NCBI GenBank assembly: GCA_964016885.1
Contig: OZ024766.1
Location: 12,958,001-13,022,000, forward strand
Direction of reading: 5' to 3'
Source of the DNA: Eledone cirrhosa
Taxonomy: Eukaryota
Length of the DNA: 64,000 bases
Below are positions 1 to 27,917 of this stretch, piece by piece (the stretch's first letter is position 1; each line of letters begins with the position of its first letter). Made by a program: the position numbers and the translations under genes. A model generated the notes under the pieces. The model saw only the letters and a program-made list of their open reading frames with translations, did no database searches and had not been told where the DNA came from.

Positions 1-184
1 ATCCCATCAAGGTAAGCTTTGCCTTTCATCCTTACTGGGTTGATAAAATAAAGTACCAGTAACACACTGGGGTCAATCAACACCCCTTCCCCAAATGTGT
101 TGGCCTTGCATCTAAATCAGAAACCATTAAAATAATCTCTAAATTTCTAGTCAACAATCAATATTATTAGTTAGAAATATTAGT

Positions 185-1385
185 TAATAATTGTTTCTAC
201 GTTAGGCACAAGGCCAGCAATTACCCCAGTGAATTACTGCTACTTTATTTTATCGACCCCGTAAGGATGAAAGGCAAAGTTAACCTCGGTGGGATTTGAA
301 CTCAGAATGGCAAGGGCCGTAACTCTATGCATCAAAGCATGGCGTCCGACCCTCCACTGATACTGCCAATCCACTGCCATTAATATTATTATTGACTAAT
401 AATATTAACTAATAATATTAACTAATTATATTAACTAATAATATTAACTAATTATATTGACTAATAATATTAACTAATAATATTAACTAAATAATATTAA
501 CTAATAATATTAACTAATAATATTAACTAATAATATTAACTAATTATATTAACTAATAATATTAACTAATTATATTAACTAATAATATTAACTAATAATA
601 TTTACTAATTATATAACTCTATGCATCAAAGCATGGCGTCCGACGCTCCACCGATACTGACAATCCACCGAATAATATTAACTAATTCAAATCCCGCCGA
701 GGTTAACTTTGCCCTTCATCCTTACGGGGTTGATAAAATAAAGTACCAGTAATACACTGGGGTAATTGCTGGCCTTGTGCCTAATGTAAAAATTATTTAA
801 ATTATTAGTGAATATTATTAGTTGATAATATTAGTTAATATTATTAGTTAATATAATTAGTGAATGTTATTAGTTAATATTATTAGGTGATAATATTAGT
901 TAATATTATTAGTTAATATAATTAGTCAATATAATTAGTTAATGAGGTTAACTTTGCCTTTCATCCTTACGGGGTCGATAAAATAAAGTACCAGTAATGT
1001 ACTGGGTAATTGCTGGCCTTGTGCCTAACGTAGAAACAATTATTAGTTCATATAATTAGTTACTATTATTAGTAAATATATTTAGTCAATATAATTAGTA
1101 AATATAATTAGTCAATATAATTAGTCAATATAATTAGTCAATATAATTAGTCAATATAATTAGTAAATATTATTAGTCAATACTATTAGTAAATATAATT
1201 AGTCAATATAATAAGTCAATATAATTAGTCAATATAATTAGTCAATATAATTAGTCAATATAATTAGTCAATATAATTAGTCAATATTATTACTCAATAT
1301 AATTAGCCAATATAATTAGTCAATATAATTAGTCAATATTATTACTCAATATTATTAGTAAATATAATTAGTCAATATAATTAGA
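185..1385. repeat. Nested inverted tRNA-SINE fragments with 13-bp AT minisatellites in both orientations (present in each unit)
   Basis: SINE segment gaggttaactttgcctttcatccttacggggtcgataaaataaagtaccag occurs on - (~185-300) and + (~685-785, ~945-1045). (AACTAATAATATT)n lies at ~385-615 and a complement-like (TAGTCAATATAAT)n at ~800-1385. Confidence 0.85.
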
Positions 1386-1795
1386 AACAATTATATTTTA
1401 TCAACCCCAGAATGTTGGTTGTGTGGGTTTTTTATTTCTGTATGAAGTTCAGACAGTCAGCCATACAGACACATGATATGAGTGTGCAACATCGTAGCTA
1501 TGTTTCTGTCAGTTGAAAGCAAGTCTTTGTATTAACTTTTAGAGAAAGTCACACCCAGTTAAATTACATGACCTTAGGTAAGTGTATGGGAGAGACAGGA
1601 GGAGAGATAGAGAGAGAGGGGGCGAGAGAGACAGAGAGAGAGAGAAAGAGAGGGATATCGAGATAGGGAGATAGAGGGAGAGAAAGAGATGTGAGAGAGA
1701 CAGAGAGAGAGGGAGAGAGAGAAAGTGGGAAGAATGGAGACTAAAAGTGGAAGAGGCAGAGAGATAGAAAGTAAAATGTAGTAGTAATTCTAATG

Positions 1796-1826
<31 letters not shown>

Positions 1827-1967
1827 CAGAGGTTATATTTAATTTGTTGGGATTCAATAAGCTTAAAAATGTTTATAACTGATATAAAGCACTCAACAGT
1901 TTGCCTTGGTTGCCTTGAAATATGTATAATAAAATAAATATGGTTTTATAAATATAGTTTCCATTTA

Positions 1968-2006
<39 letters not shown>

Positions 2007-2008
<2 letters not shown>

Positions 2009-2082
2009 AGGAAAAGAGTCAGGACCCCAACTGCTGATCTCTGGCCAGAGCTCAGCTGTTGGGTTCCTGGCTCTTTTCCTAT
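2007..2082. mobile_element. Short fold-back fragment of the HHR-bearing family seen at 44951-45140 (present in each unit)
   Basis: Palindrome centred on tgg|cca (2044/2045); the right arm and following sequence resemble 45027-45091. Confidence 0.65.
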
Positions 2083-2129
2083 TACCCACTCTTCTACCCT
2101 AAGTATTGAGTACTCTGAGATATATATAT

Positions 2130-2181
<52 letters not shown>

Positions 2182-2699
2182 CCCAAATTAAAATTAAGGG
2201 TTGTCATGTCTGAGAGACATGCACCATGCGTAGAATAAGCTGAAAGATTAGATCCGAGCATTACATATCAACTAGAAATAGATTGACATATATATATATA
2301 TATATAATAAATACATGAAACAATCACAGGGAATAATTTGTAAAGAATGTAGGCACACATAGCTAGGTAGGTAACTAATTAAAGCTTGACTAGAACTTCA
2401 AATATAGATACCTTTTAAAATGATTAATCTCCTTTGTATATATTTCTTTAAGTAAGAAATATATTTCACCTATTAATCCGTAAATCACAGCAGTTAAATT
2501 CTTGGATGTTCACCAAATGAGAAGAAAAATAACCATCTGCGTTTACACAGCAAATGCAAATCTGCGAATGATTTGAACCACTTGTTGCATTTTTTTTAAA
2601 ATACACTCGTTGAACAACGTCATCCCAGTGGCCTGAATAGGACCATCGACAGCCAGAAATAGCCAGAAATATAAATATAAATATATATATATGTTTATA

Positions 2700-2913
2700 T
2701 AATATAAGATCAAAAGATGGTTAAAGGAGTTCCATGTATTTTATTATGCGCATTTCAAAAACAAACATCATCATGCAATAATATTTGTGTTTTCATCAGA
2801 TAAAACAGGAGAACATGATATGAAGGCTAAAAAAACACTTGTGGATAGTGCAGTTTTAAATGCGCATAATAAAATACATGGAACTCCTTTAACCATCTTT
2901 TGATCTTATATTA
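2700..2913. mobile_element. Fold-back element with ~56-bp inverted arms containing the HHR; probable Penelope-like pseudo-LTR remnant (repeated in 5 units)
   Basis: 2700-2755 is the reverse complement of 2858-2913; the element lies between (TA)n tracts and carries the HHR. Confidence 0.7.
2739..2805 (-). ncRNA. Type I hammerhead ribozyme, copy 1
   Basis: Minus strand reads TTTTAT-CTGATGA-(stem II AAACACAAATATTAT..ATGATGTTTGTTTTT)-GAAA-TGCGCA-TA-ATAAAA. Canonical core, 6-bp stem I, palindromic stem III (ATGCGCAT), AUA cleavage triplet. Confidence 0.85.
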
Positions 2914-3059
2914 CGTATACTCCAGTCCTACAAACTGTAGAGTGCTTCTTATCCGATATCTGCATTGCTTTATTGTACTACAATAAAACTCACCTCCTAC
3001 ATTATATGTATATATATATATATATTCTCTTTTACTCTTTTAACGTCTTCCAGCGATCC

Positions 3060-3335
3060 AGTTGAGGCCATGCTGGGGCATGCCCTTGTTACACATTCTT
3101 TCTCCAACCTGTGTTGGTTGGCCATTTGGCAAAGAGGGGGTTCGTTGTTGCTGCCCTTAGGTTACCTTCGAACCATGCTGTGGGCTCATCCAGGATCCTG
3201 GTAACAGGGTGTCGAGATGTTCCTTGAAAACATCCACGTCCACACCATGCAGATCTCTCAAATTCCTTGGCAGCTTGTTGAAGAAGTGAGGGCCCTTGAA
3301 CCCCAGGTTATTGTAATACCTGCTCCTTATTCTGT
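3060..3335 (-). mobile_element. CR1/L2-like LINE 3' fragment (present in each unit)
   Basis: Translation RYYNNLGFKGPHFFNKLPRNLRDLHGVDVDVFKEHLDTLL resembles the C-terminus of CR1-group ORF2. Confidence 0.65.
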
Positions 3336-3957
3336 ATATATTTATAAGTATATATCTATATATGTGTGTGTGTGGTAGGAAGTATGGTAAGGAACGAGGT
3401 GGACCATAACGCACCAGATCACGCGATACTTTGGTTAGTAGATATATATATATATGTGAGTGTGTGTTAAGCTATTCTATTAAATCTACTCCAGGATATC
3501 ACTGGTACTATATTTTATCAACCCCTGAATTATGAAATCATTTCATTTTACGTCCCCTTTTCCCTGCTTGCAAGAGTGGGACAGGAACTGATTCTGGCTT
3601 GATTTCTACAGCTTGATGCCCTTCCTAAAACCAACCTCATTTACAGTGAGTGCTGGGTGATTTTTTGCCGTGGCACCTCTACGACCACTTTACAGTGGAA
3701 TGATAGGGACTCCAGTCCCTATCATCTCATTTCTACAGCTGAGTAAACTGGAGCAATTTGAAATAAAGTGTCTTGCTCAAGGAAACAACACATTAACCGG
3801 TCGGAGAATTGAACTCACAACCTTTCGATAAAGAATAATACAATTATAGAGATTATAAAAGATTATAAAAGAATAATACGTATTATTCCTTTCGAATACA
3901 ATAAAAGGCCTGCTGTTACAACTTTGGTATTTATTGAGGATATTGTGACTCGTTTAA

Positions 3958-4178
3958 CCCTTTAGCATTTAAACCGGCCATATCCGGCCAGAAATCTCTC
4001 ACTTTTTTCTGTTCAAACCGGCTGTAACTAGCCACTCATACTGACGTTAAGGTATTCTTCTCAAAATAAATAATATCAAAATCTCATAGATTCAATATTA
4101 TGTGAGATAACTATATAAGATAAAGTGTTTACTGTGAAACTACAATAGTAAATATAGAATAATGTAAGTGCTAAAGGG
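3958..4178. mobile_element. 221-bp piggyBac-type MITE (also starting at 9489, 14412, 19424, 24458, 29882)
   Basis: TTAA|CCCTTTAGCA...TGCTAAAGGG|TTAA: terminal inverted repeats with a TTAA target duplication. Confidence 0.85.
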
Positions 4179-4516
4179 TTAAATAACTTAAATTTACAAC
4201 TTCAAGGTAAAACACAGCTCGTAAATGAAATGTATAACCATATTGTTGTCTTTGAAAAAAAGCTACAGTTGTGGGAACATCAACTTTGAAATAAAAATTA
4301 TGTGCATTTTCCATCATTTCAAGGAGGGAAATCACAGGATTCAGAGGTATTTGTGAATATAATTCAAGATTTGAGAAATGAATAGTATAGTCGACACTCG
4401 AGATTAAATTTTAGCTTGTGTAATTTTCCATAATTATTCTTTTATGGCGTTCGTCCGGCCCGTGGAGGCAAAGAAGTTGGCAATCCCTGATCTACACCAA
4501 TGTTTTCCTGTTACAG

Positions 4517-4654
4517 TGTGCAGTAGTGGAAGACTTGGTGCCAACTGTGATCAGGTGTGTCATTGTGAAGATAACAACAGGTGGAATGTGGAATTAGGGA
4601 TCTGTTCAAGGGGTAGATGTGCTCCAGGTTATGAAAGAAACAGTTGTCAGAAAG
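4517..4654 (+). CDS. EGF-like (laminin/MEGF-type) exon, copy 1; carries C->W and G->R changes
   Basis: Acceptor ttttcctgttacAG and donor AG|GTTAGT; 138 nt, phase 1-1; encodes (V)CSSGRLGANCDQVCHCEDNNRWNVELGICSRGRCAPGYERNSCQK. Confidence 0.85.
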
Positions 4655-7171
4655 GTTAGTTATTTTCATATCTCAGCTTTTATCTCTCACCAGTCCAGGT
4701 ACTTTATTTTATCAACCCCAGTACATTACTGGTACTTTATTTTATTAACCCCAGTACATTACTGGTAGTTTACTTTATCAACCCCAGTTCGTTACTGGTA
4801 CTTTACTTTATCAACCCCAGTACGTTACTGGTACTTTACTTTATCAACCCCAGTACGTTACTGGTACTTTACTTTATCAACCCCAGTACGTTACTGGTAC
4901 TTTACTTTATCAACCCTGTTAGGATGAAAGCCAGAGCTATAACTTCAGTAGGATTTGAACCCAGTTACGGCCCTTTACGTTCTGAGTTCAAATCCCATCA
5001 AGGTAAGCTTTGCCCTTCATCCTAACTGGGTTGATAAAATAAAGTACCAGTAACACACTGGGGTCAATCAACACCCCTTCCCCAAATGTGTTGGCCTTGC
5101 ATCTAAATCAGAAACCATTAAAATAATCTCTAAATTTCTAGTCAACAATCAATATTATTAGTTAGTAATATTAGTTAATAATTGTTTCTACGTTAGGCAC
5201 AAGGCCAGCAATTACCCCAGTGTATTACTGCTACTTTATTTTATCGACCCCGTAAGGATGAAAGGCAAAGTTAACCTCGGTGGGATTTGAAATCAGAATG
5301 GCAAGGGCCGTAACTCTATGCATCAAAGCATGGCGTCCCACCCTCCACTGATACTGCCAATCCACTGCCATTAATGTTATTATTGACTAATAATATTAAC
5401 TAATTATATTAATTAATAATATTAACTAATTATATTGACTAATAATATTAACTAATAATATTAACTAATAATATTAACTAATTATATTAACTAATAACAT
5501 TAACTAATAATATTAACTAATTATATTAACTAATAATATTAACTAATTATATTAACTAATAATATTAACTAATAATATTAACTAATTATATTAACTAATA
5601 ATATTAACTAATAATATTAACTAATTATATTAACTAATAATATTAACTAATTATATTAACTAATAATATTAACTAATAATATTTACTAATTATATTGACT
5701 AAGGGCCGTAACTCTATGCATCAAAGCATGGCGTCCGACGCTCCACCGATACTGCCAATCCACCGAATAATATTAACTAATTCAAATCCCGCCGAGGTTA
5801 ACTTTGCCCTTCATCCTTACGGGGTTGATAAAATAAAGTACCAGTAATACACTGGGGTAATTGCTGGCCTTGTGCCTAATGTAAAAATTATTTAAATTAT
5901 TAGTGAATATTATTAGTTGATAATATTAGTTAATATTATTAGTTAATATAATTAGTGAATGTTATTAGTTAATATTATTAGGTGAGAATATTAGTTAATA
6001 TTATTAGTAATATAATTAGTCAATATAATTAGTTAATATTATTAGTCAATATAATTAGTTAATGAGGTTAACTTTGCCTTTCATCCTTACGGGGTCGATA
6101 AAATAAAGTACCAGTAATGTACTGGGTAATTGCTGGCCTTGTGGCTAATGTAGAAATAATTATTAGTTCATATAATTAGTTACTATTATTAGTAAATATA
6201 ATTAGTCAATATAATTAGTCAATATAATTAGTCAATATAATTAGTCAATATAATTAGTCAATATAATTAGTCAATATAATTAGTCAATATTATTAGTCAA
6301 TATTATTAGTAAATATAATTAGTCAATATAATTAGTCAATATAATTAGTCAATATAATTAGTCAATATTATTAGTAAATATAATTAGTCAATATTATTAG
6401 TAAATATAATTAGTCAATATAATTAGTCAATATAATTAGTCAATATAATTAGTCAATATAATTAGTCAATATTATTAGTCAATATTATTAGTAAATATAA
6501 TTAGTCAATATTATTAGTAAATATAATTAGTCAATATAATTAGTCAATATAATTAGTCAATATAATTAGTCAATATAATTAGTCAATATAATAAGTCAAT
6601 ATTATTAGTCAATATTATTAGTAAATATAATTAGTCAATATTATTAGTCAATATTATTAGTAAATATAATTAGTCAATATAATTAGTCAATATAATTAGT
6701 CAATATTATTAGTCAATATTATTAGTAAATATAATTAGTCAATATAATTAGGCAATATTATTAGTCAATATTATTCGTAAATATAATTAGTCAATATAAT
6801 TAGAAACAATTATATTTTATCAACCCCAGAATGTTGGTTGTGTGGGGTTTTTTATTTCTGTATGAAGTTCAGGCAGTCAGCCATACAGACACATGATATG
6901 AGTGTGCAACATTGTAGCTATGTTTCTGTCAGTTGAAAGCAAGTCTTTGTATTAACTTTTGAGAAAGTCACACCCAGTTAAATTACATGACCTTAGGTAA
7001 GTGTATGGGAGAGACAGGAGCAGAGATAGAGAGAGATAGAGAGAGAGAGAGGGGGTGAGAGAAAGAGAGGGATATCGAGAGAGGGAGATAGAGGGAGAGA
7101 AAGAGATGTGAGAGACAGAGATAGAAAGTAAAATGTAGTAGTAATTCTAATGTTGTATTATATATATTTAT

Positions 7172-7216
<45 letters not shown>

Positions 7217-7485
7217 GAGGTTATATTTAATTTGTTGGGATTCAATAAGCTTAAAAATGTTTATAACTGATATAAAGCACTCAACAGTTTGCCTTGGTTG
7301 CCCTTGAAATATGTATAATAAAATAAATATGGTTTTATAAATATAGTTTCCATTTATTAATATATTATTTATATATATATATATATAAATATATAATAAG
7401 GTTCCTATTACCCACTCTACTACCTCAAGTATTGAGTACTTTGGTGCGTTATGGTCCACCTGGTTCCTTACCACATTTCCTTCGT

Positions 7486-7540
<55 letters not shown>

Positions 7541-7663
7541 AGGAAAAGAGTCAGGACCCCAACTGCTGATCTCTGGCCGGAGCTCAGCTGTTGGGTTCCT
7601 GGCTCTTTTCCTATTACCCACTCTTCTACCCTAAGTATTGAGTACTCTGAGATATATATATAT

Positions 7664-7697
<34 letters not shown>

Positions 7698-8268
7698 GTA
7701 TATCTATATATCCAAAATTAAAATTAAGGGTTGTCATGTCTGAGAGACATGCACCATGCGTAGAATAAGCTGAAAGATTAGATCCGAGCATTACATATCA
7801 ACTAGAAATAGATTGACATATATATATATATATATAATAAATACATGAAACAATCACAGGGAATAATTTGTAAAGAATGTAGGCACACATAGCTAGGTAG
7901 GTAACTAATTAAAGCTTGACTAGAACTTCAAATATAGATACCTTTTAAAATGATTAATCTCCTTTGTATATATTTCTTTAAGTAAGAAATATATTTCACC
8001 TATTAATCCGTAAATCACAGCAGTTAAATTCTTGGATGTTCACCAAATGAGAAGAAAAATAACCATCTGCGTTTACACAGCAAATGCAAATCTGCGAATG
8101 ATTTGAACCACTTGTTGCATTTTTTTAAAAATACACTCGTTGAACAACGTCATCCCAGTGGCCTGAATAGGACCATCGACAGCCAGAAATAGCCAGAAAT
8201 ATAAATATAAATATATATATATGTATATATAATATAAGATCAAAAGATGGTTAAAGGAGTTCCATGTA

Positions 8269-8335
8269 TTTTATTATGCGCATTTCAAAAACAAACATCA
8301 TCATGCAATAATATTTGTGTTTTCATCAGATAAAA
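8269..8335 (-). ncRNA. Type I hammerhead ribozyme, copy 2
   Basis: Same sequence as 2739-2805. Confidence 0.85.
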
Positions 8336-10048
8336 CAGGAGAACATGATATGAAGGCTAAAAAAACACTTGTGGATAGTGCAGTTTTAAATACGCATAAT
8401 AAAATACATGGAACTCCTTTAACCATCTTTTGATCTTATATTATGTATACTCCAGTCCTACAAACTGTAGAGTGCTTCTTATCCGATATCTGCATTGCTT
8501 TATTGTACTACAATAAAACTCACCACCTACATTATATGTATATATATATATATATTCTCTTTTACTCTTTTAACGTGTTCCAGCGATCCAGTTGAGGCCA
8601 TGCTGGGGCATGCCCTTGTTACACATTCTTTCTCCAACCTGTGTTGGTTGGCCATTTGGCAAAGAGGGGGTTCGTTGTTGCTGCCCTTAGGTTACCTTCG
8701 AACCATGCTGTGGGCTCATCCAGGATCCTGGTAACAGGGTGTCGAGATGTTCCTTGAAAACATCCACGTCCACACCATGCAGATCTCTCAAATTCCTTGG
8801 CGGCTTGTTGAAGAGGTGAGGGCCCTTGAACCCCAGGTTATTGTAATACCTGCTCCTTATTCTGTATATATTTATAAGTATATATCTATATATGTGTGTG
8901 TGTGTGGTAGGAAGTATGGTAAGGAACGAGGTGGACCATAACGCACCAGATCACGCGATACTTTGGTTAGTAGATATATATATATATGTGAGTGTGTGTT
9001 AAGCTATTCTATTAAATCTACTCCAGGATATCACTGGTACTATATTTTATCAACCCCTGAATTATGAAATCATTTCATTTTACGTCCCCTTTTCCCTGCT
9101 TGCAAGAGTGGGACAGGAACTGATTCTGGCTTGATTTCTACAGCTTGATGCCCTTCCTAAAACCAACCTCATTTACAGTGAGTGCTGGGTGATTTTTTGC
9201 CGTGGCACCGCTACGACCACTTTACAGTGGAATGATAGGGACTCCAGTCCCTATCATCTCATTTCTACAGCTGAGTAAACTGGAGCAATTTGAAATAAAG
9301 TGTTTGCTCAAGGAAACAACACGTTAACCGGTCGGAGAATTGAACTCACAACCTTTCGATAAAGAATAATACAATTATAGAGATTATAAAAGATTATAAA
9401 AGAATAATACGTATTATTCCTTTCGAATACAATAAAAGGCCTGCTGTTACAACTTTGGTATTTATTGAGGATATTGTGACTCGTTTAACCCTTTAGCATT
9501 TAAACCGGCCATATCCGGCCAGAAATCTCTCACTTTTTTCTGTTCAAACCGGCTGTAACTAGCCACTCATACTGACGTTAAGGTATTCTTCTCAAAATAA
9601 ATAATATCAAAATCTCATAGATTCAATATTATGTGAGATAACTATATAAGATAAAGTGTTTACTGTGACATTACAATAGTAAATATAGAGTAATGTAAGT
9701 GCTAAAGGGTTAAATAACTTAAATTTACAACTTCAAGGTAAAACTCAGCTCGTAAATGAAATGTATAACCATATTGTTGCCTTTGAAAAAAAGCTACAGT
9801 TGTGGGAACATCAACTTTGAAATAAAAATTATGTGCATTTTCCATCATTTCAAGGAGGGAAATCACAGGATTCAGAGGTATTTGTGAATATAATTCAAGA
9901 TTTGAGAAATGAATAGTATAGTCAACACTCGAGATAAAAATTTTAGCTTGTGTAATTTTCCATAATTATTCTTTTATGGCGTTCGTCCGGCCCGTGGAGG
10001 CAAAGAAGTTGGCAATCCCTGATCTACACCAATGTTTTCCTGTTACAG

Positions 10049-10186
10049 TGTGCAGTAGTAGAAGACTTGGTGCCAACTGTGATCAGGTGTGTCATTGTGA
10101 AGATAACAACAGGTGTAATGTGGAATTAGGGATCTGTTCAAGGGGTAGATGTGCTCCAGGTTATGAAGGAAACAGTTGTCAGAAAG
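10049..10186 (+). CDS. EGF-like exon, copy 2 (G->R)
   Basis: Same splice sites, 138 nt; CSSRRLGANCDQVCHCEDNNRCNVELGICSRGRCAPGYEGNSCQK. Confidence 0.87.
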
Positions 10187-10229
10187 GTTAGTTATTTTCA
10201 TATCTCAGCTTTTATCTCTCACCAGTCCA

Positions 10230-11076
10230 GGTACTTTATTTTATCAACCCCAGTACATTACTGGTACTTTATTTTATCAATCCCAGTACATTACTGGTAC
10301 TTTATTTTGTCAACCCCAGTACGTTACTGGTACTTTACTTTATCAACCCCAGTACGTTACTGGTACTTTATTTTATCAACCCCAATACATTACTGGTACT
10401 TTACTTTATCAACCCCAGTACATTCCTGGTACTTTACTTTATCAACCCCAGTACGTTACTAGTACTTTATTTTATCAACTCCAGTACATTACTGGTACTT
10501 TATTTTATCAACCCCAGTACGTTACTGGTACTTTACTTTATCAACCCCAGTACGTTACTGATACTTTACTTTATCAAATCCAGTACATTACTGGTACTTT
10601 ACTTTATCAACTCCAGTACATTACTGGTACTTTACTTTATCAACCCAAGAACGTTACAGGTACTTTACCTTATCAACCCCAGTACATTACTGGTACTTTA
10701 CTTTATCAACCCCAGTACATTACTGGTACCTTACTTTATCAACCCCCCGTACATTACTGGTACTTTACTTTATCAACCCCAGTACGTTACTGGTACTTTA
10801 CTTTATCAACCCCAGTACGTTACTGATACTTTACTTTATCAAACCCAGTACATTACTGGTACTTTACTTTATCAACCCCAGTACATTACTGGTACTTTAC
10901 TTTATCAACCCAAGAACGTTACAGGTACTTTACTTTATCAACCCCAGTACATTACTGGTACTTTACTTTATCAACCCCAGTACATTACTGGTACCTTACT
11001 TTATCAACCCAAGAACGTTACAGGTACTTTACTTCATCAACCCCAGTACGTTACTGGTACTTTACTTTATCAACCC
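10230..11076. repeat. 33-bp SINE-derived VNTR downstream of each EGF exon (also ~4698-4917, 15151-15900, 20163-20946, 25198-25746, 30621-30841)
   Basis: Unit CAACCCCAGTAC(A/G)TTACTGGTACTTTACTTTAT is the reverse complement of the SINE segment ataaaataaagtaccagtaatacactgggg; ~6 to ~25 copies per locus. Confidence 0.92.
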
Positions 11077-12221
11077 TGTTAGGATGAAAGCCAGAGCTAT
11101 AACTTTAGTAGGATTTGAACCCAGTTACGGCCCTTTACGTTCTGAGTTCAAATCCCATCAAGGTAAGCTTTGCCTTTCATCCTTACTGGGTTGATAAAAT
11201 AAAGTACCAGTAACACACTGGGGTCAATCAACACCCCTTCCCCAAATGTGTTGGCCTTGCATCTAAATCAGAAACCATTAAAATAATCTCTAAATTTCTA
11301 GTCAACAATCAATATTATTAGTTAGAAATATTAGTTAATAATTGTTTCTACGTTAGGCACAAGGCCAGCAATTACCCCAGTGTATTACTGCTACTTTATT
11401 TTATCGACCCCGTAAGGATGAAAGGCAAAGTTAACCTCGGTGGGATTTGAACTCAGAATGGCAAGGGCCGTAACTCTATGCATCAAAGCATGGCGTCCGA
11501 CCCTCCACTGATACTGCCAATCCACTGCCATTAATATTATTATTGACTAATAATATTAACTAATAATATTAACTAATATATAATTAGACAATATAATTAG
11601 TCAATATTATTAGCCAATACTATTAGTAAATATAATAAGTCAATATAATAAGTCAATATAATTAGTCAATATAATTAGTCAATATAATTAGTCAATATAA
11701 TTAGTCAATATAATTAGTCAATATTATTACTCAATATAATTAGCCAATATAATTAGTCAATATAATTAGTCAATATTATTACTCAATATTATTAGTAAAT
11801 ATAATTAGTCAATATAATTAGAAACAATTATATTTTATCAACCCCAGAATGTTGGTTGTGTGGGTTTTTTATTTCTGTATGAAGTTCAGACAGTCAGCCA
11901 TACAGACACATGATATGAGTGTGCAACATCGTAGCTATGTTTCTGTCAGTTGAAAGCAAGTCTTTGTATTAACTTTTAGAGAAAGTCACACCCAGTTAAA
12001 TTACATGACCTTAGGTAAGTGTATGGGAGAGACAGGAGGAGAGATAGAGAGAGACAGAGAGAGAGAGAAAGAGAGGGATATCGAGAGAGGGAGATAGAGG
12101 GAGAGAAAGAGATGTGTGAGAGACAGAGAGAGAGGGAGAGAGAGAAAGTGGGAAGAATGGAGACTAAAAGTGGAAGAGGCAGAGAGATAGAAAGTAAAAT
12201 GTAGTAGTAATTCTAATGTTG

Positions 12222-12270
<49 letters not shown>

Positions 12271-12409
12271 GAGGTTATATTTAATTTGTTGGGATTCAAT
12301 AAGCTTAAAAATGTTTATAACTGATATAAAGCACTCAACAGTTTGCCTTGGTTGCCTTGAAATATGTATAATAAAATAAATATGGTTTTATAAATATAGT
12401 TTCCATTTA

Positions 12410-12446
<37 letters not shown>

Positions 12447-12569
12447 AGGAAAAGAGTCAGGACCCCAACTGCTGATCTCTGGCCAGAGCTCAGCTGTTGG
12501 GTTCCTGGCTCTTTTCCTATTACCCACTCTTCTACCCTAAGTATTGAGTACTCTGAGATATATATATAT

Positions 12570-12621
<52 letters not shown>

Positions 12622-13178
12622 CCCAAATTAAAATTAAGGGTTGTCATGTCTGAGAGACATGCACCATGCGTAGAATAAGCTGAAAGATTAGATCCGAGCA
12701 TTACATATCAACTAGAAATAGATTGACATATATATATATATATATAATAAATACATGAAACAATCACAGGGAATAATTTGTAAAGAATGTAGGCACACAT
12801 AGCTAGGTAGGTAACTAATTAAAGCTTGACTAGAACTTCAAATATAGATACCTTTTAAAATGATTAATCTCCTTTGTATATATTTCTTTAAGTAAGAAAT
12901 ATATTTCACCTATTAATCCGTAAATCACAGCAGTTAAATTCTTGGATGTTCACCAAATGAGAAGAAAAATAACCATCTGCGTTTACACAGCAAATGCAAA
13001 TCTGCGAATGATTTGAACCACTTGTTGCATTTTTTTAAAAATACACTCGTTGAACAACGTCATCCCAGTGGCCTGAATAGGACCATCGACAGCCAGAAAT
13101 AGCCAGAAATATAAATATAAATATATATATATGTATATATAATATAAGATCAAAAGATGGTTAAAGGAGTTCCATGTA

Positions 13179-13245
13179 TTTTATTATGCGCATTTCAAAA
13201 ACAAACATCATCATGCAATAATATTTGTGTTTTCATCAGATAAAA
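13179..13245 (-). ncRNA. Type I hammerhead ribozyme, copy 3
   Basis: Same sequence as 2739-2805. Confidence 0.85.
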
Positions 13246-14971
13246 CAGGAGAACATGATATGAAGGCTAAAAAAACACTTGTGGATAGTGCAGTTTTAAA
13301 TGCGCATAATAAAATACATGGAACTCCTTTAACCATCTTTTGATCTTATATTATGTATACTCCAGTCCTACAAACTGTAGAGTGCTTCTTATCCGATATC
13401 TGCATTGCTTTATTGTACTACAATAAAACTCACCTCCTACATTATATGTATATATATATATATATATATATTCTCTTTTACTCTTTTAACGTGTTCCAGC
13501 GATCCAGTTGAGGCCATGCTGGGGCATGCCCTTGTTACACATTCTTTCTCCAACCTGTGTTGGTTGGCCATTTGGCAAAGAGGGGGTTCGTTGTTGCTGC
13601 CCTTAGGTTACCTTCGAACCATGCTGTGGGCTCATCCAGGATCCTGGTAACAGGGTGTCGAGATGTTCCTTGAAAACATCCACGTCCACACCATGCAGAT
13701 CTCTCAAATTCCTTGGCAGCTTGTTGAAGAGGTGAGGGCCCTTGAACCCCAGGTTATTGTAATACCTGCTCCTTATTCTGTATATATTTATAAGTATATA
13801 TCTATATATGTGTGTGTGTGTGTGTGTGGTAGGAAGTATGGTAAGGAACGAGGTGGACCATAACGCACCAGATCACGCGATACTTTGTTTAGTAGATATA
13901 TATATATATGTGAGTGTGTGTTAAGCTATTCTATTAAATCTACCCCAGGATATCACTGGTACTATATTTTATCAACCCCTGAATTATGAAATCATTTCAT
14001 TTTACGTCCCCTTTTCCCTGCTTGCAAGAGTGGGACAGGAACTGATTCTGGCTTGATTTCTACAGCTTGATGCCCTTCCTAAAACCAACCTCATTTACAG
14101 TGAGTGCTGGGTGATTTTTTGCCGTGGCACCTCTACGACCACTTTACAGTGGAATGATAGGGACCCCAGTCCCTATCATCTCATTTTTACAGCTGAGTAA
14201 ACTGGAGCAATTTGAAATAAAGTGTCTTGCTCAAGGAAACAACACATTACCCGGTCTGAGAATTGAACTCACAACCTTTCGATAAAGAATAATACAATTA
14301 TAGAGATTATAAAAGATTATAAAAGAATAATACATATTATTCCTTTCGAATACAATAAAAGGCCTGCTGTTACAACTTTGGTATTTATTGAGGATATTGT
14401 GACTCGTTTAACCCTTTAGCATTTAAACCGGCCATATCCGGCCAGAAATCTCTCACTTTTTTCTGTTCAAACCGGCTGTAACTAGCCACTCATACTGACG
14501 TTAAGGTATTCTTCTCAAAATAAATATTATCAAAATCTCATAGATTCAATATTATGTGAGATAACTATATAAGATAAAGTGTTTACTGTGACATTACAAT
14601 AGTAAATATAGAGTCATGTAAGTGCTAAAGGGTTAAATAACTTAAATTTACAACTTCAAGGTAAAACTCAGCTCGTAAATGAAATGTATAACCATATTGT
14701 TGCCTTTGAAAAAAAGCTACAGTTGTGGGAACATCAACTTTGAAATAAAAATTATGTGCATTTTCCATCATTTCAAGGAGGGAAATCACAGGATTCAGAG
14801 GTATTTGTGAATATAATTCAAGATTTGAGAAATGAATAGTATAGTCGACACTCGAGATAAAAATTTTAGCTTGTGTAATTTTCCATAATTATTCTTTTAT
14901 GGCGTTCGTCCGGCCCATGGAGGCAAAGAAGTTGGCAATCCCTGATCTACACCAATGTTTTCCTGTTACAG

Positions 14972-15109
14972 TGTGCAGTAGTGGAAGACTTGATGCCAAC
15001 TGTGATCAGGTGTGTCATTGTGAAGATAACAGCAGGTGTAATGTGGAATTAGGGATCTGTTCAAGGGGTAGATGTGCTCCAGGTTATGAAGGAAACAGTT
15101 GTCAGAAAG
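14972..15109 (+). CDS. EGF-like exon, copy 3 (G->D, N->S)
   Basis: Same splice sites, 138 nt; CSSGRLDANCDQVCHCEDNSRCNVELGICSRGRCAPGYEGNSCQK. Confidence 0.87.
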
Positions 15110-18098
15110 GTTAGTTATTTTCATATCTCAGCTTTTGTCTCTCACCAGTCCAGGTACTTTATTTTATCAACCCCAGTACGTTACTGGTACTTTATTTTAT
15201 CAACCCCAGTACATTACTGGTACTTTACTTTATCAACCCCAGTACGTTACTGGTACTTTATTTTATCAATCCCAGTACATTACTGGTACTTTATTTTATC
15301 AACCCCAGTACGTTACTGGTACTTTACTTTATCAACCCCAGTACGTTACTGGTACTTTACTTTATCAACCCCAGTACATTACTGGTACTTTACTTTATCA
15401 ACCCCAGTACGTTACTGGTACTTTACTTTATCAACCCCCGTACATTACTGGTACTTTACTTTATCAACCCCAGTACGTTACTGGTACTTTACTTTATCAA
15501 CCCCAGTACGTTACTGGTACTTTACTTTATCAACCCCCGTACATTACTGGTACTTTACTTTATCAACCCCCGTACATTACTGGTACTTTACTTTATCAAC
15601 CCCAGTACGTTACTGGTACTTTACTTTATCAAACCCAGTACATTACTGATACTTTACTTTATCAAACCCAGTACATTACTGGTACTTTACTTTATCAACC
15701 CCAGTACATTACTGGTACTTTACTTTATCAACCCCAGTATGTTACTGGTACTTTACTTTATCAACCCCAGTACATTACTGGTACTTTACTTTATCAACCC
15801 CAGTACATTACTGGTACCTTACTTTATCAACCCAAGAACGTTACAGGTACTTTACTTCATCAAACCCAGTACGTTACTGGTACTTTACTTTATCAACCCT
15901 GTTAGGATGAAAGCCAGAGCTATAACTTTAGTAGGATTTGAACCCAGTTACGGCCCTTTACGTTCTGAGTTCAAATCCCATCAAGGTAAGCTTTGCCTTT
16001 CATCCTTACTGGGTTGATAAAATAAAGTACCAGTAACACACTGGGGTCAATCAACACCCCTTCCCCAAATGTGTTGGCCTTGCATCTAAATCAGAAACCA
16101 TTAAAATAATCTCTAAATTTCTAGTCAACAATCAATATTATTAGTTAGTAATATTAGTTAATAATTGTTTCTACGTTAGGCACAAGGCCAGCAATTACCC
16201 CAGTGAATTACTGCTACTTTATTTTATCGACCCCGTAAGGATGAAAGGCAAAGTTAACCTCGGTGGGATTTGAACTCAGAATGGCAAGGGCCGTAACTCT
16301 ATGCATCAAAGCATGGCGTCCGACCCTCCACTGATACTGCCAATCCACTGCCATTAATATTATTATTGACTAATAATATTAACTAATAATATTAACTAAT
16401 TATATTAACTAATAATATTAACTAATTATATTGACTAATAATATTAACTAATAATATTAACTAAATAATATTAACTAATAATATTAACTAATAATATTTA
16501 CTAATTATATAACTCTATGCATCAAAGCAAGGCGTCCGACGCTCCACCAATACTGCCAATCCACCGAATAATATTAACTAATTCAAATCCCGCCGAGGTT
16601 AACTTTGCCTTTCATCCTTACGGGGTTGATAAAATAAAGTACCAGTAATACACTGGGGTAATTGCTGGCCTTGTGCCTAATGTAAAAATTATTTAAATTA
16701 TTAGTGAATATTATTAGATGATAATATTAGTTAATATTATTAGTTAATATAATTAGTGAATGTTATTAGTTAATATTATTAGGTGATAATATTAGTTAAT
16801 ATTATTAGTTAATATAATTAGTCAATATAATTAGTTAATGAGGTTAACTTTGCCTTTCATCCTTACGGGGTCGATAAAATAAAGTACCAGTAATGTACTG
16901 GGTAATTGCTGGCCTTGAGCCTAACGTAGAAACAATTATTAGTTCATATAATTAGTTACTATTATTAGTAAATATAATTAGTCAATATAATTAGTAAATA
17001 TAATTAGTCAATATAATTAGTCAATATAATTAGTAAATATAATTAGTCAATATAATTCGTCAATATAATTAGTCAATATTATTAGTCAATATTATTAGTA
17101 AATATTATTAGTAAATATAATTAGTCAATATAATTAGTCAATATTATTAGTAAATATAATTAGTCAATATTATTAGTCAATATAATTAGTCAATATAATT
17201 AGTCAATATAATTAGTCAATATAATTAGTCAATATAATTAGTCAATATAATAAGTCAATATTATTAGTCAATATTATTAGTAAATATAATTAGTCAATAT
17301 TATTAGTCAATATTATTAGTCAATATTATTAGTAAATATAATTAGTCAATATAATTAGTCAATATTATTAGTCAATATTATTAGTCAATATTATTAGTAA
17401 ATATAATTAGTCAATATAATTAGTCAATATTATTAGTCAATATTATTAGTCAATATTATTCGTAAATATAATTAGTCAATATAATTAGTCAATATTATTA
17501 GTCAATATTATTAGTCAATATTATTAGTAAATATAATTAGTCAATATAATTAGAAACAATTATATTTTATCAACCCCAGAATGTTGGTTGTGTGGGGTTT
17601 TTTATTTCTGTATGAAGTTCTGGCAGTCAGCCATATAGACACATGATATGAGTGTGCAACATTGTAGCTATGTTTCTGTCAGTTGAAAGCAAGTCTTTGT
17701 ATTAACTTTTAGAGAAAGTCACACCCAGTTAAATTACATGACCTTAGGTAAGTGTATGGGAGAGACAGGAGGAGAGATAGAGAGAGATAGAGAGAGAGAG
17801 GGGGGTGAGAGAAAGAGAGGGATATCGAGAGAGGGAGATAGAGGGAGAGAAAGAGATGTGAGAGACAGAGATAGAAAGTAAAATGTAGTAGTAATTCTAA
17901 TGTTGTATTATATATATTTATATATATATATATAAATATATATATATGCAGAGGTTATATTTAATTTGTTGGGATTCAATAAGCTTAAACATTTTTATAA
18001 CTGATATAAAGCACTCAACAGTTTGCCTTGGTTGCCCTTGAAATATGTATAATAAAATAAATATGGTTTTATAAATATAGTTTCCATTTATTAATATA

Positions 18099-18156
<58 letters not shown>

Positions 18157-18455
18157 AGGAAAAGAGTCAGGACCCCAACTGCTGATCTCTGGCCGGAGCT
18201 CAGCCGTTGGGTTCCTGGCTCTTTAAGTAAGAAATATATTTCACCTATTAATCCGTAAATCACAGCAGTTAAATTCTTGGATGTTCACCAAATGAGAAGA
18301 AAAATAACCATCTGCGTTTACACAGCAAATGCAAATCTGCGAATGATATGAACCACGTGTTGCATTTTTTTAAAAATACACTCGTTGAACAACGTCATCC
18401 CAGTGGCCTGAATAGGACCATCGACAGCCAGAAATAGCCAGAAATATAAATATAA

Positions 18456-18486
<31 letters not shown>

Positions 18487-19982
18487 CTCTTTTACTCTTT
18501 TAACGTGTTCCAGCGATCCAGTTGAGGCCATGCTGGGGCATGCCCTTGTTACACATTCTTTCTCCAACCTGTGTTGGTTGGCCATTCGGCAAAGAGGGGG
18601 TTCGTTGTTGCTGCCCTTAGGTTACCTTCGAACCATGCTGTGGGCTCATCCAGGATCCTGGTAACAGGGTGTCGAGATGTTCCTTGAAAACATCCACGTC
18701 CACACCATGCAGATCTCTCAAATTCCTTGGCAGCTTGTTGAAGAGGTGAGGGCCCTTGAACCCCAGGTTATTGTAATACCTGCTCCTTATTCTGTATATA
18801 TTTATAAGTATATATCTATATATGTGTGTGTGTGTGTGTGGTAGGAAGTATGGTAAGGAACGAGGTGGACCATAACGCACCAGATCACGCGATACTTTGG
18901 TTAGTAGATATATATATATATGTGAGTGTGTGTTAAGCTATTCTATTAAATCTACCCCAGGATATCACTGGTACTATATTTTATCAACCCCTGAATTATG
19001 AAATCATTTCATTTTACGTCCCCTTTTCCCTGCTTGCAAGAGTGGGACAGGAACTGATTCTGGCTTGATTTCTACAGCTTGATGCCCTTCCTAAAACCAA
19101 CCTCATTTACAGTGAGTGCTGGGTGATTTTTTGCCGTGGCACCTCTACGACCACTTTACAGTGGAATGATAGGGACTCCAGTCCCTATCATCTCATTTCT
19201 ACAGCTGAGTAAACTGGAGCAATTTGAAATAAAGTGTCTTGCTCAAGGAAACAACACATTACCCGGTCTGAGAATTGAACTCACAACCTTTCGATAAAGA
19301 ATAATACAATTATAGAGATTATAAAAGATTATAAAAGAATAATACGTATTATTCCTTTCGAATACAATAAAAGGCCTGCTGTTACAACTTTGGTATTTAT
19401 TGAGGATATTGTGAATCGTTTAACCCTTTAGCATTTAAACCGGCCATATCCGGCCAGAAATCTCTCACTTTTTTCTGTTCAAACCGGCTGTAACTAGCCA
19501 CTCATACTGACGTTAAGGTATTCTTCTCAAAATAAATAATATCAAAATCTCATAGATTCAATATTATGTGAGATAACTATATAAGATAAAGTGTTTACTG
19601 TGACATTACAATAGTAAATATAGAGTAATGTAAGTGCTAAAGGGTTAAATAACTTAAATTTACAACTTCAAGGTAAAACTCAGCTCGTAAATGAAATGTA
19701 TAACCATATTGTTGCCTTTGAAAAAAAGCTACAGTTGTGGGAACATCAACTTTGAAATAAAAATTATGTGCATTTTCCATCATTTCAAGGAGGGAAATCA
19801 CAGGATTCAGAGGTATTTGTGAATATAATTCAAGATTTGAGAAATGAATAGTATAGTCGACACTCGAGATTAAATTTTAGCTTGTGTAATTTTCCATAAT
19901 TATTCTTTTATGGCGTTCGTCCGGCCCATGGAGGCAAAGAAGTTGGCAATCCCTGATCTACACCAATGTTTTCCTGTTACAG

Positions 19983-20120
19983 TGTGCAGTAGTGGAAGAC
20001 TTGGTGCCAACTGTGATCAGGTGTGTCATTGTGAAGATAACAACAGGTGTAATGTGGAATTAGGGATCTGTTCAAGGGGTAGATGTGCTCCAGTTTATGA
20101 AGGAAACAGTTGTCAGAAAG
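19983..20120 (+). CDS. EGF-like exon, copy 4 (G->V)
   Basis: Same splice sites, 138 nt; ends ...RCAPVYEGNSCQK. Confidence 0.87.
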
Positions 20121-23100
20121 GTTAGTTATTTTCATATCTCAGCTTTTATCTCTCACCAGTCCAGGTACTTTATTTTATCAACCCCAGTACATTACTGGTA
20201 CTTTATTTTATCAATCCCAGTACATTACTGGTACTTTATTTTGTCAACCCCAGTACTTTACTGGTACTTTACTTTATCAACACCAGTACGTTACTGGTAC
20301 TTTACTTTATCAACCCCAGTACATTACTGGTACTTTACTTTATCAACCCCAGTACGTTACTGGTACTTTACTTTATCAACCCCCCGTACATTACTGGTAC
20401 TTTACTTTATCAACCCCAGTACGTTACTGGTACTTTACTTTATCAACCCCAGTACGTTACTGATACTTTACTTTATCAAACCCAGTACATTACTGGTACT
20501 TTACTTTATCAACCCCAGTACATTACTGGTACCTTACTTTATCAACCCAAGAACGTTACAGGTACTTTACCTTATCAACCCCAGTACATTACTGGTACTT
20601 TACTTTATCAACCCCAGTACATTACTGGTACCTTACTTTATCAACCCCACGTACATTACTGGTACTTTACTTTATCAACCCCAGTACGTTACTGATACTT
20701 TACTTTATCAAACCCAGTACATTACTGGTACTTTACTTTATCAACCCCAGTACATTACTGGTACCTTACTTTATCAACCCAAGAACGTTACAGGTACTTT
20801 ACTTTATAAACCCCAGTACATTACTGGTACTTTACTTTATCAACCCCAGTACATTACTGGTACCTTACTTTATCAACCCAAGAACGTTACAGGTACTTTA
20901 CTTTATCAACCCCAGTACGTTACTGGTACTTTACTTTATCAACCCTGTTAGGATGAAAGCCAGAGCTATAACTTCAGTAGGATTTGAACCCAGTTACGGC
21001 CCTTTACGTTCTGAGTTCAAATCCCATCAAGGTAAGCTTTGCCTTTCATCCTTACTGGGTTGATAAAATAAAGTACCAGTAACACACTGGGGTCAATCAA
21101 CACCCCTTCCCCAAATGTGTTGGCCTTGCATCTCAATCAGAAACCATTAAATAATCTCTAAATTTCTAGTCAACAATCAATATTATTAGTTAGTAATATT
21201 AGTTAATAATTGTTTCTACGTTAGGCACAAGGCCAGCAATTACCCCAGTGAATTACTGCTACTTTATTTTATCGACCCCGTAAGGATGAAAGGCAAAGTT
21301 AACCTCGGTGGGATTTGAACTCAGAATGGCAAGGGCCGTAACTCTATGCATCAAAGCATGGCGTCCGACCCTCCACTGATACTGCCAATCCACTGCCATT
21401 AATATTATTATTGACTAATAATATTAACTAATAATATTAACTAATTATATTAACTAATTATATTGACTAATTATATTGACTAATAATATTAACTAATAAT
21501 ATTAACTAAATAATATTAACTAATAATATTAACTAATAATATTTACTAATTATATAACTCTATGCATCAAAGCATGGCGTCCGACGCTCCACCGATACTG
21601 CCAATCCACCGAATAATATTAACTAATTCAAATCCCGCCGAGGTTAACTTTGCCTTTCATCCTTACGGGGTTGATAAAATAAAGTACCAGTAATACACTG
21701 GGGTAATTGCTGGCCTTGTGCCTAATGTAAAAATTATTTAAATTATTAGTGAATATTATTAGATGATAATATTAGTTAATATTATTAGTTAATATAATTA
21801 GTGAATGTTATTAGTTAATATTATTAGGTGATAATATTAGTTAATATTATTAGTTAATATAATTAGTCAATATAATTAGTTAATGAGGTTAACTTTGCCT
21901 TTCATCCTTACGGGGTCGATAAAATAAAGTACCAGTAATGTACTGGGTAATTGCTGGCCTTGTGCCTAACGTAGAAACAATTATTAGTTCATATAATTAG
22001 TTACTATTATTAGTAAATATAATTAGTCAATATAATTAGTAAATATAATTAGTCAATATAATTAGTCAATATAATTAGTCAATATAATTAGTAAATATAA
22101 TTAGTCAATATAATTCGTCAATATTATTAGTCAATATTATTAGTAAATATTATTAGTAAATATAATTAGTCAATATAATTAGTCAATATTATTAGTCAAT
22201 ATTATTAGTAAATATTATTAGTAAATATAATTAGTCAATATAATTAGTCAATATAATTAGTCAATATAATTAGTCAATATTATTAGTAAATATAATTAGT
22301 CAATATTATAAGTAAATATAATTAGTCAATATAATTAGTCAATATAATTAGTCAATATAATTAGTCAATATAATATGTCAATATTATTAGTCAATATTAT
22401 TAGTAAATATAATTAGTCAATATTATTAGTAAATATAATTAGTCAATATAATTAGTCAATATAATTAGTCAATATTATTAGTCAATATTATTAGTCAATA
22501 TAATTAGTCAATATAATTAGTCAATATTATTAGTCAATATTATTCGTAAATATAATTAGTCAATATAATTAGAAACAATTATATTTTATCAACCCCAGAA
22601 TGTTGGTTGTGTGGGGTTTTTTATTTCTGTATGAAGTTCAGGCAGTCAGCCATACAGACACATGATATGAGTGTGCAACATTGTAGCTATGTTTCTGTCA
22701 GTTGAAAGCAAGTCTTTGTATTAACTTTTGAGAAAGTCACACCCAGTTAAATTACATGACCTTAGGTAAGTGTATGGGAGAGACAGGAGGAGAGATAGAG
22801 AGAGATAGAGAGAGAGAGGGGGGTGAGAGAAAGAGAGGGATATCGAGAGAGGGAGATAGAGGGAGAGAAAGAGATGTGAGAGACAGAGATAGAAAGTAAA
22901 ATGTAGTAGTAATTCTAATGTTGTATTATATATATTTATATATATATATATAAATATATATATATGCAGAGGTTATATTTAATTTGTTGGGATTCAATAA
23001 GCTTAAACATTTTTATAACTGATATAAAGCACTCAACAGTTTGCCTTGGTTGCCCTTGAAATATGTATAATAAAATAAATATGGTTTTATAAATATAGTT

Positions 23101-23121
23101 TCCATTTATTAATATATTATT

Positions 23122-23190
<69 letters not shown>

Positions 23191-23489: not shown

Positions 23490-23520
<31 letters not shown>

Positions 23521-27696: not shown

Positions 27697-27727
<31 letters not shown>

Positions 27728-27868: not shown

Positions 27869-27917
<49 letters not shown>

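What the first reader, a model, noticed from the sequence alone, without database searches (positions are those of the whole stretch)
3830..3892. Array junction contains a 63-bp templated insertion copied from a hairpin apex ~6 kb beyond the array
Seen: at each unit junction the SINE breaks after cctttcgat and is followed by 63 bp identical to 40844-40906 (one substitution in two units), which is the duplicated apex of the 40712-41037 inverted repeat. CCTTTCGA occurs just before the insert and again overlapping its end. Inference: the founding duplication arose by microhomology-mediated template switching (FoSTeS/MMBIR-like) through an extruded hairpin, then expanded by unequal crossover.
Basis: partly seen in the sequence, partly recalled or inferred. 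Interest (0 to 1): 0.7.

Follow-up and report, generated by a model that had tools for sequence, protein, structure and literature searches.

The report
Hairpin tip copied into duplication seam
In an octopus-like genome, every visible seam of a 5-kb tandem repeat array carries a 63-base copy of the exact tip of a DNA hairpin 6 kb away, likely a scar of error-prone repair synthesis at the founding duplication, a known kind of event with an unusually neat symmetry.

Summary
Observation confirmed. The 63-mer lies at 6 of 6 junctions (4 exact, 2 with one change) and once at 40844-40906; the last unit's SINE runs on intact. New here: the piece is the hairpin tip cut symmetrically to within 1 nt (40843 pairs with 40906), and its inner duplication needs bases outside the 63-mer, so the hairpin was the donor. 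In public contigs the junction is about as deep as the rest of the unit and over 100-fold deeper than dispersed single contigs: the array is probably far larger than the window, and the 63-mer is not a common repeat. Microhomology is 5 nt on one side, none exact on the other; hairpin extrusion is unproven. Best reading: template-switching repair synthesis, ended by fold-back of the new strand (0.6). The 5'-most unit was not seen, and a second organism holds the junction at low depth, so an insert older or younger than the duplication stays open. Templated junction inserts, also from inverted repeats, are known. No earlier scan note matches.

The parts
3830..3892 (+). 63-bp junction insert, unit U1 start
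   Evidence: 63/63 to 40844-40906
9361..9423 (+). 63-bp junction insert, U2 start
   Evidence: 63/63
14284..14346 (+). 63-bp junction insert, U3 start
   Evidence: 62/63, G>A
19296..19358 (+). 63-bp junction insert, U4 start
   Evidence: 63/63
24330..24392 (+). 63-bp junction insert, U5 start
   Evidence: 63/63
29754..29816 (+). 63-bp junction insert, U6 start
   Evidence: 62/63, G>A; G is the allele of the deep junction contig in run X1, 1143.5 of 1159.8
40844..40906 (+). Donor: tip of the hairpin (12 nt of left arm, 38-nt loop, 13 nt of right arm)
   Evidence: 40844 pairs with 40905 and 40843 with 40906; loop holds copies of 40836-40855
40712..41037 (.). Fold-back inverted repeat, 144-nt arms, 38-nt loop
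   Evidence: 138/144 complementary; no other copy of arm or flanks in the window
1..34686 (+). Head-to-tail array: one partial unit (U0, 1-3829) and six full units of 4923-5531 nt
   Evidence: 0.34-1.54% difference outside simple repeats over 21 pairs
29745..29752 (+). CCTTTCGA, first copy (end of the broken SINE); same in each junction
29812..29819 (+). CCTTTCGA, second copy: CCTTT from the donor, CGA of unresolved origin
34678..34726 (+). Unbroken SINE at the array's 3' end (no insert)
   Evidence: its continuation resembles the family's loose-end consensus at the same place
29817..30342 (+). Unit start: decayed hAT (GTF2IRD2-like) transposase remnant, interrupted by a high-copy MITE-like element at about 29877-30106
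   Evidence: 30154-30342 matches P0002 (79%) and 30103-30306 matches P0003 (62%); 29848-29876 continues the P0003 alignment by eye (5 of 11 residues); element ends from loose ends
30441..30578 (+). 138-nt AG..GT exon-like segment for one EGF-like domain; copies at 4517, 10049, 14972, 19983, 25018
   Evidence: Pfam EGF_STAB1-2 E 1e-4, below its cut-off; Atlas EGF_laminin/PEAR1-like clusters 0.90-0.92

Best explanation
The 63 bases are a copy of the tip of the hairpin at 40712-41037, likely written into the seam by template-switching repair synthesis when the first tandem duplication formed, and likely multiplied later with the array. Shown: identity, direction of copying, symmetry about the hairpin axis, an intact SINE at the array's end, mosaic units. 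Inferred steps: (1) a DNA end inside the SINE, after cctttcgat, primed on the hairpin's left arm 6.2 kb downstream with little or no microhomology; (2) once synthesis passed the tip, the new strand became complementary to itself and would fold back, which frees it from the template just where its own fold runs out, the point symmetric to the entry; (3) the freed end, now CCTTT, re-annealed, either straight to the hAT remnant 4.9 kb upstream or after re-copying CGA from the SINE end, which completed the duplication; (4) unequal exchange and gene conversion expanded and homogenised the array. The same path can be read on the other strand. The polymerase (Pol theta, or Pol delta in MMBIR) cannot be told from sequence.
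For: Insert only at the 6 junctions and the donor. SINE intact at the terminal unit, and that intact SINE shares the junction SINEs' alleles 71 and 35 nt before the break where most family depth in X1 differs (87% and 99%), so they are the same SINE copy. Direction: the loop repeats 40836-40855, of which 40836-40843 lies outside the insert, and the insert carries the arm mismatch A40846/C40903. Symmetry within 1 nt; a random 63-mer from the 29 kb outside the array would centre that well on one of 10 hairpin axes about 0.1% of the time, 2% for mere overlap (post hoc). The junction with its flanks folds into a longer hairpin that takes in the SINE end. Donor looks older than the copy: arms differ at 6 of 144, insert and donor at 0 of 63 (chance 0.07 if equally old). 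CCTTT match near the break by chance about 0.6%. X1 depth: insert bin 1174, junction contig 1143.5, exon contig 1213, hAT contig 1070, against 1e5-1e6 in SINE and MITE bins. 78 of 171 pairs of 19 informative sites fail the four-gamete test; U3 and U4 share deletions of 375 and 321 nt. Precedents: templated inserts at duplication junctions (PMC6902434), insertions from inverted-repeat hotspots (PMC13065848), Pol theta stem-loop extension (PMC11292364).
Against: No exact microhomology at the SINE-to-donor join. The 5'-most unit and the native sequence upstream of 29817 were not seen, so the origin of CGA and the true acceptor microhomology are unknown; protein homology to P0003 did not reach the join. 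Run X5 (organism B) has one 121-nt contig across the whole junction at depth 4.94, while its exon contig is at 2.95 and its hAT-paralogue contigs at about 3: if genuine and single-copy, the insert is older than the duplication. The right end is uncertain by up to 5 nt (40901-40906) because CCTTT could come from the SINE, which loosens the symmetry (0.24% at a tolerance of 3). Symmetry is predicted just as well by a cut-off hairpin tip. One event, so no statistics on the mechanism itself.
Confidence: 0.6

Rival explanations
1. The insert is a physically cut-off hairpin tip used as a patch at the founding junction: either a nuclease cut across the stem of a DNA hairpin or cruciform, or an RNase III enzyme cut a hairpin transcript and the piece was reverse-transcribed.
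For: Ends lie opposite each other across the stem with a 1-nt 3' overhang on the + strand. No exact entry microhomology, as in end joining. 63 nt is the size of a pre-miRNA (recalled). RNA- and DNA-derived patches at breaks are described (PMC5110952, passages).
Against: The donor is only 6.2 kb from the break, which favours local copying over a diffusible piece. The overhang is 1 nt, not the usual 2 nt of RNase III (recalled). No Rfam family reaches its gathering score (best at the donor: MIR841, 86.5 of 200 bits, a generic long-hairpin match). Transcription of the hairpin is untested.
Confidence: 0.15
2. The insert is older than the duplication: a repair scar joined a broken SINE copy to the hAT remnant in the single-copy locus, and the array was founded later by crossover between that SINE half and a second SINE copy 5 kb downstream.
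For: X5 (organism B) holds the junction at a depth close to its single-copy level (4.94 against about 3). The SINE family is very abundant.
Against: Alleles unlike the family majority are shared by broken and intact SINEs up to 35 nt before the break, so the crossover would have had to fall in the last 35 nt. X5's junction contig differs from the window at only 2 of 121 letters, one of them the array's majority allele (the other probably U6's own variant at 29839, inferred), so carry-over from a high-copy array in organism A is not excluded.
Confidence: 0.12
3. The insert is younger than the array: the first duplication joined SINE and hAT remnant through CCTTTCGA microhomology, the hairpin tip was later inserted into one seam with that 8-mer duplicated, and the variant swept the array by concerted evolution.
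For: An 8-nt direct repeat flanks the insert like a target-site duplication. Insert and donor are identical while units differ by 0.34-1.54%. The units do exchange sequence.
Against: 6 of 6 junctions in the window carry it, and in X1 the junction contig is as deep as the rest of the unit (1143.5 against 1070-1213), with no insert-skipping joint among the 15 joints shown of 194. Five of the 8 repeated bases are explained by the donor. At 1% divergence, 0 of 63 is expected half the time.
Confidence: 0.1
4. The 63-mer is a piece of a dispersed palindromic transposon (MITE or fold-back element), so the match to 40844-40906 is family likeness and the donor could be anywhere.
For: The window holds about 10 other fold-backs outside the array, two of them between (TA)n runs like MITEs.
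Against: No excess depth over the insert in X1, unlike SINE and MITE bins; no second copy of the arms in the window; no target-site duplication seen at the hairpin's ends. A few further copies cannot be excluded.
Confidence: 0.03

Closest known systems
Templated insertions at tandem-duplication junctions (FoSTeS/MMBIR; PLP1 duplications, PMC6902434; local jumps and templated insertions in cancer, PMC7025897)
   Same: Head-to-tail gain with a short insert copied from a nearby intact donor; inserts of 11, 27, 38, 170, 182 and 861 bp are described at PLP1 junctions (passages).
   Different: Here it is a germ-line event in an invertebrate, later multiplied into a large array; one join has no exact microhomology; the donor is a whole hairpin tip cut symmetrically.
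Pol theta-linked MM-BIR insertions at inverted repeats (PMC13065848)
   Same: Insertions drawn from loci with inverted repeats able to form cruciforms (passages).
   Different: In the passages seen the polymerase is proposed to stall at the cruciform and switch strand, giving inverted pieces at its boundary; here the copy runs straight through the tip in one orientation.
SD-MMEJ / TMEJ loop-out and snap-back synthesis (PMC5728401; PMC11292364)
   Same: Junction carries a new direct repeat (CCTTTCGA) and a fold-back that takes in the SINE end, the repeat-motif signature described there (passages; abstract and opening text).
   Different: Those templates flank the break; the 63-mer comes from 6.2 kb away.
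Class 2 templated sequence insertion polymorphisms (PMC5110952)
   Same: A short patch copied from an intact donor, no poly(A) tail, microhomology at a join (passages).
   Different: TSIPs patch a simple break from a distant donor; this one sits in a duplication seam with a local donor and has an 8-nt flanking repeat.

Membership tests
FoSTeS/MMBIR templated-insertion junction | Copy-number gain with a head-to-tail junction | tested here: met
   6 junctions, SINE intact at the terminal unit
FoSTeS/MMBIR templated-insertion junction | Insert copied from another locus that stays intact | tested here: met
   63/63 to 40844-40906; direction from the loop's inner duplication
FoSTeS/MMBIR templated-insertion junction | Microhomology at each template switch | tested here: inconclusive
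   None exact at the SINE-donor join; CCTTT (5 nt) shared by donor end and SINE end; acceptor side unknown
FoSTeS/MMBIR templated-insertion junction | Insert and duplication made in one event (absent from the ancestral copy) | not testable with these tools
   No genome held; 5'-most flank not among the loose ends shown; X5 ambiguous
FoSTeS/MMBIR templated-insertion junction | Replicative origin and its enzymes | not testable with these tools
   Sequence alone cannot show it
SD-MMEJ / TMEJ junction | Direct or inverted repeat motif spanning the junction | tested here: met
   CCTTTCGA twice per junction; fold-back onto the SINE end
SD-MMEJ / TMEJ junction | Template in the DNA next to the break | tested here: not met
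   Donor 6158 nt away; could hold only for the 3-4 nt after the insert
SD-MMEJ / TMEJ junction | Pol theta dependence | not testable with these tools
   Needs mutants
Class 1 TSIP (LINE-mediated) | Target-site duplication of 5 bp or more | tested here: inconclusive
   8-nt repeat present, but 5 nt of it are donor sequence
Class 1 TSIP (LINE-mediated) | Poly(A) tail | tested here: not met
   No tail at either end of the insert
Dispersed MITE or fold-back transposon | Many dispersed copies | tested here: not met
   Depth over the insert equals the unit's depth in X1, 1174 against 1070-1213; a few copies not excluded
Dispersed MITE or fold-back transposon | Target-site duplication at the hairpin's ends | tested here: not met
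   None seen by eye around 40712 and 41037
Known microRNA precursor family | Rfam score at or above the gathering score | tested here: not met
   0 of 93 matches in 29500-41300 reach it
Known microRNA precursor family | Processed small RNAs | not testable with these tools
   No RNA data for the hairpin was examined
Macrosatellite under concerted evolution | Kilobase units, many copies, near-identical and recombining | tested here: met
   0.34-1.54%; 78 of 171 site pairs incompatible; contig depth over 100 times that of dispersed contigs, not a true copy number

The most novel reading that the evidence does not exclude
The insert is the cap of a hairpin RNA cut off by an RNase III enzyme (Drosha- or Dicer-like), reverse-transcribed and used to bridge the break, so that a small-RNA processing product seeded a megabase-scale exon-bearing array; hairpin-rich cephalopod genomes would then carry many such symmetric caps at rearrangement junctions.
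Probability: 0.05. Interest if true: 0.7.

Novelty: new member of a known kind. Interest (0 to 1): 0.3.

Why it matters
It is a clean fossil of how a large exon-bearing tandem array probably began in an invertebrate germ line: the seam records three points within 11 kb, a class of event known mostly from human disease and cancer. The one feature I did not find described is the symmetry about the hairpin axis. If it recurs genome-wide it gives a sequence signature that tells fold-back release of the new strand, or capture of cut hairpin tips, from ordinary template switching, and this hairpin-rich genome would be a good place to count it. As a single case it changes no model.

Tried and rejected
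Whole-genome BLAST: no genome held. Exact scan of JGI metagenome contigs with 42 nt of the insert: 0 matches, uninformative for an animal genome. No RNA holder listed for the junction and exon; no evidence either way. Run X7 (organism D) holds the hAT and exon parts at depth 64-72 with its own variants (30267 A>T, 4 nt missing at 30169) and has no cover at 29760-29845; X6 has none there either; holes prove nothing. The 5'-most flank was not among the 24 loose ends shown (1154 not shown). Protein search for the EGF exon among longer proteins: nothing. No further EGF exon found in the window beyond the six copies, so the host gene is unidentified. hAT homology could not place the acceptor's first base. 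Assembly artefact rejected: units and hairpin arms differ from each other, and an X5 contig spans the junction. Reverse direction (array to hairpin) rejected. Selection on the exon: 6 of 6 differences change the protein, chance 0.28 if neutral, so neither purifying nor positive selection is shown. Earlier scan notes: nothing nearby, 3 unrelated bacterial or phage notes, 1 unrelated note.

Full report
1. Observation. The 63-mer at 3830-3892 has 7 full-length matches in the window: six array junctions (3830, 9361, 19296, 24330 exact; 14284 and 29754 with one G>A at a CpG) and 40844-40906 exact. Every junction follows cctttcgat; at the end of the last unit (34686) the same repeat continues unbroken. 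CCTTTCGA occurs 13 times in the window, twice per junction and once in the intact copy. The finding is real as written.

2. Setting. The DNA is octopus-like: the unit's transposase remnant matches a protein named from Octopus bimaculoides at 90% over 76% of the query. The array fills 1-34686: one partial and six full units of 4923-5531 nt, differing by 0.34-1.54% outside simple repeats over 21 pairs. All six exon copies keep frame and splice sites; 6 of 6 differences among them change the protein, one removing a cysteine, which neutrality gives with chance 0.28.

3. The donor and the direction. The inverted repeat has arms 40712-40855 and 40894-41037, 138 of 144 complementary, with a 38-nt loop. 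The loop consists of 8 nt, a 10-nt partial copy and a 20-nt full copy of 40836-40855, after which the right arm starts. Bases 40836-40843 lie outside the 63-mer, so the tip was built in the hairpin and copied to the seam, not the reverse. The insert also carries the arm mismatch A40846/C40903. Arms differ at 6 of 144, insert and donor at 0 of 63; the chance of that if they were equally old is 0.07, so the hairpin is probably older.

4. In the fold 40843 pairs with 40906 and 40844 with 40905: the insert is the hairpin's cap, cut straight across the stem to within 1 nt. Ten local inverted repeats lie in the 29 kb outside the array; a random 63-mer would centre within 1 nt of one of their axes 0.1% of the time, within 3 nt 0.24%, and overlap an axis 2% of the time (a post hoc test on one event). 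The right end is uncertain by up to 5 nt because CCTTT is shared with the SINE end.

5. Microhomology. At the SINE-to-donor join there is none exact: the SINE has T and the donor A before the insert; a 2-nt match with a 1-nt slip in an A run is possible. At the other end the donor's last five bases equal CCTTT of the SINE end (chance about 0.6%). The next three bases, CGA (chance about 1%), may be re-copied from the SINE end, made by snap-back onto it (the junction folds that way), or native to the hAT remnant; homology with P0003 reaches to about 29848 by eye and cannot decide.

6. Public runs. Of 23 runs listed I laid 4 on 29330-30615; all are contigs. In X1 (organism A, possibly the source sample) the bin over the insert has depth 1174, the junction contig 1143.5, the exon contig 1213 and the hAT contig 1070, while six dispersed MITE-bearing contigs have 5.7-8.7 and SINE and MITE bins sum to 1e5-1e6. 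The tool warns that depth is no copy number; still, this says that the 63-mer is not a common repeat, that most units carry it, and that the array probably has on the order of a hundred units. At two sites 71 and 35 nt before the break, 87% and 99% of the family depth has another letter, yet all 7 unit ends, the intact one included, share the window's letter: broken and intact SINEs are one copy at least to 35 nt from the break. Against a simple story: X5 (organism B) has a 121-nt contig across the entire junction at depth 4.94, with 2 other letters, while its exon contig is at 2.95 and hAT paralogues at about 3. That fits a relative with one or two units, or carry-over from a high-copy array; I cannot tell which. 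X6 and X7 hold the hAT and exon parts and have no cover over the junction, which proves nothing. The ancestral 5' flank was not among the loose ends shown.

7. Expansion. Of 171 pairs of 19 informative sites among six units, 78 fail the four-gamete test, with no clear trend in distance (median 1917 against 1668 nt); neighbours U3 and U4 share deletions of 375 and 321 nt. The units have exchanged sequence; unequal crossover and gene conversion are not told apart, and repeated CpG changes may add to the count.

8. Mechanism. Most likely (0.6) a repair or restart intermediate broken in the SINE copied through the hairpin tip 6158 nt downstream, the new strand folded back on itself and came off at the point symmetric to its entry, and then joined the hAT remnant 4870 nt upstream (distances), founding the duplication. 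Identity, direction and symmetry are shown; the order of events, the fold-back release and the enzyme are inferred. An extruded donor hairpin is possible but not needed.

9. Known kin. Templated inserts at duplication junctions: PMC6902434 (passages) and PMC7025897 (passages). Insertions from inverted-repeat hotspots, attributed to Pol theta: PMC13065848 (passages). Repeat motifs from loop-out and snap-back synthesis: PMC5728401 (passages). Pol theta stem-loop extension: PMC11292364 (abstract, opening text and outline). DNA and RNA patches: PMC5110952 (passages). Locally templated inserts in Drosophila: bioRxiv 10.1101/2020.07.20.188979 (passages). No supplements were opened. It works like an MMBIR- or TMEJ-type templated junction; membership is not fully shown, since microhomology is incomplete and the single-event criterion untested. 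In eight searches (listings only, apart from the papers named) I saw no report of a symmetric hairpin cap at an array junction or of this array; the library lacks most subscription papers, so this is weak. Pre-miRNA size and RNase III overhangs are recalled, from no call; 0 of 93 Rfam matches reach a gathering score.

10. Verdict. Real, correctly seen, largely explained by known repair chemistry: a new member of a known kind, interest 0.3. The symmetry is the part worth a genome-wide count, and the array's 5' end is the one read that would settle the timing.

Noticed in passing
window 34687-64000: About ten local fold-backs in 29 kb; 35197-35578 (95%) and 36087-36624 (98%) are near-perfect palindromes lying between long (TA)n runs, like MITEs that target TA repeats.
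   Followed up: partly
window 30887-32222 and the same part of each unit: Nested inverted repeat pieces with 13-bp minisatellites on opposite strands whose copy numbers vary widely between units; a 33-bp minisatellite next to it has 6.6 to 25.6 copies. Looks like repeated local template switching.
   Followed up: no
window 4517-4654, 10049-10186, 14972-15109, 19983-20120, 25018-25155, 30441-30578: One symmetrical-phase EGF-like exon per unit with intact splice sites; if the array has about a hundred units and is spliced it would encode a very long EGF-repeat protein. All 6 differences are non-synonymous.
   Followed up: partly
window 60529-60807 (+): Stop-free stretch with an ankyrin-repeat-like segment (recognised from recall), on the same strand as the EGF exons; possibly an exon of the host or a neighbouring gene.
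   Followed up: no
window 61763-63517 (-): 585-codon stop-free stretch with 23-residue repeats (69-bp tandem repeat), recalling the N-terminus of Helitron proteins (recall only).
   Followed up: no
window 37790-38560 (+): Decayed reverse-transcriptase-like LINE fragment, by eye.
   Followed up: no
window 40067-40296 (-): Another copy (78%) of the MITE-like element that interrupts the unit's hAT remnant lies about 400 nt from the donor hairpin; too diverged to be the same event.
   Followed up: partly
window 30145-30615, run X7: Organism D holds the hAT and exon parts at depth 64-72 with fixed variants of its own, against 12.4 for a contig near the unit's 3' part; it may have its own amplification of this exon.
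   Followed up: no
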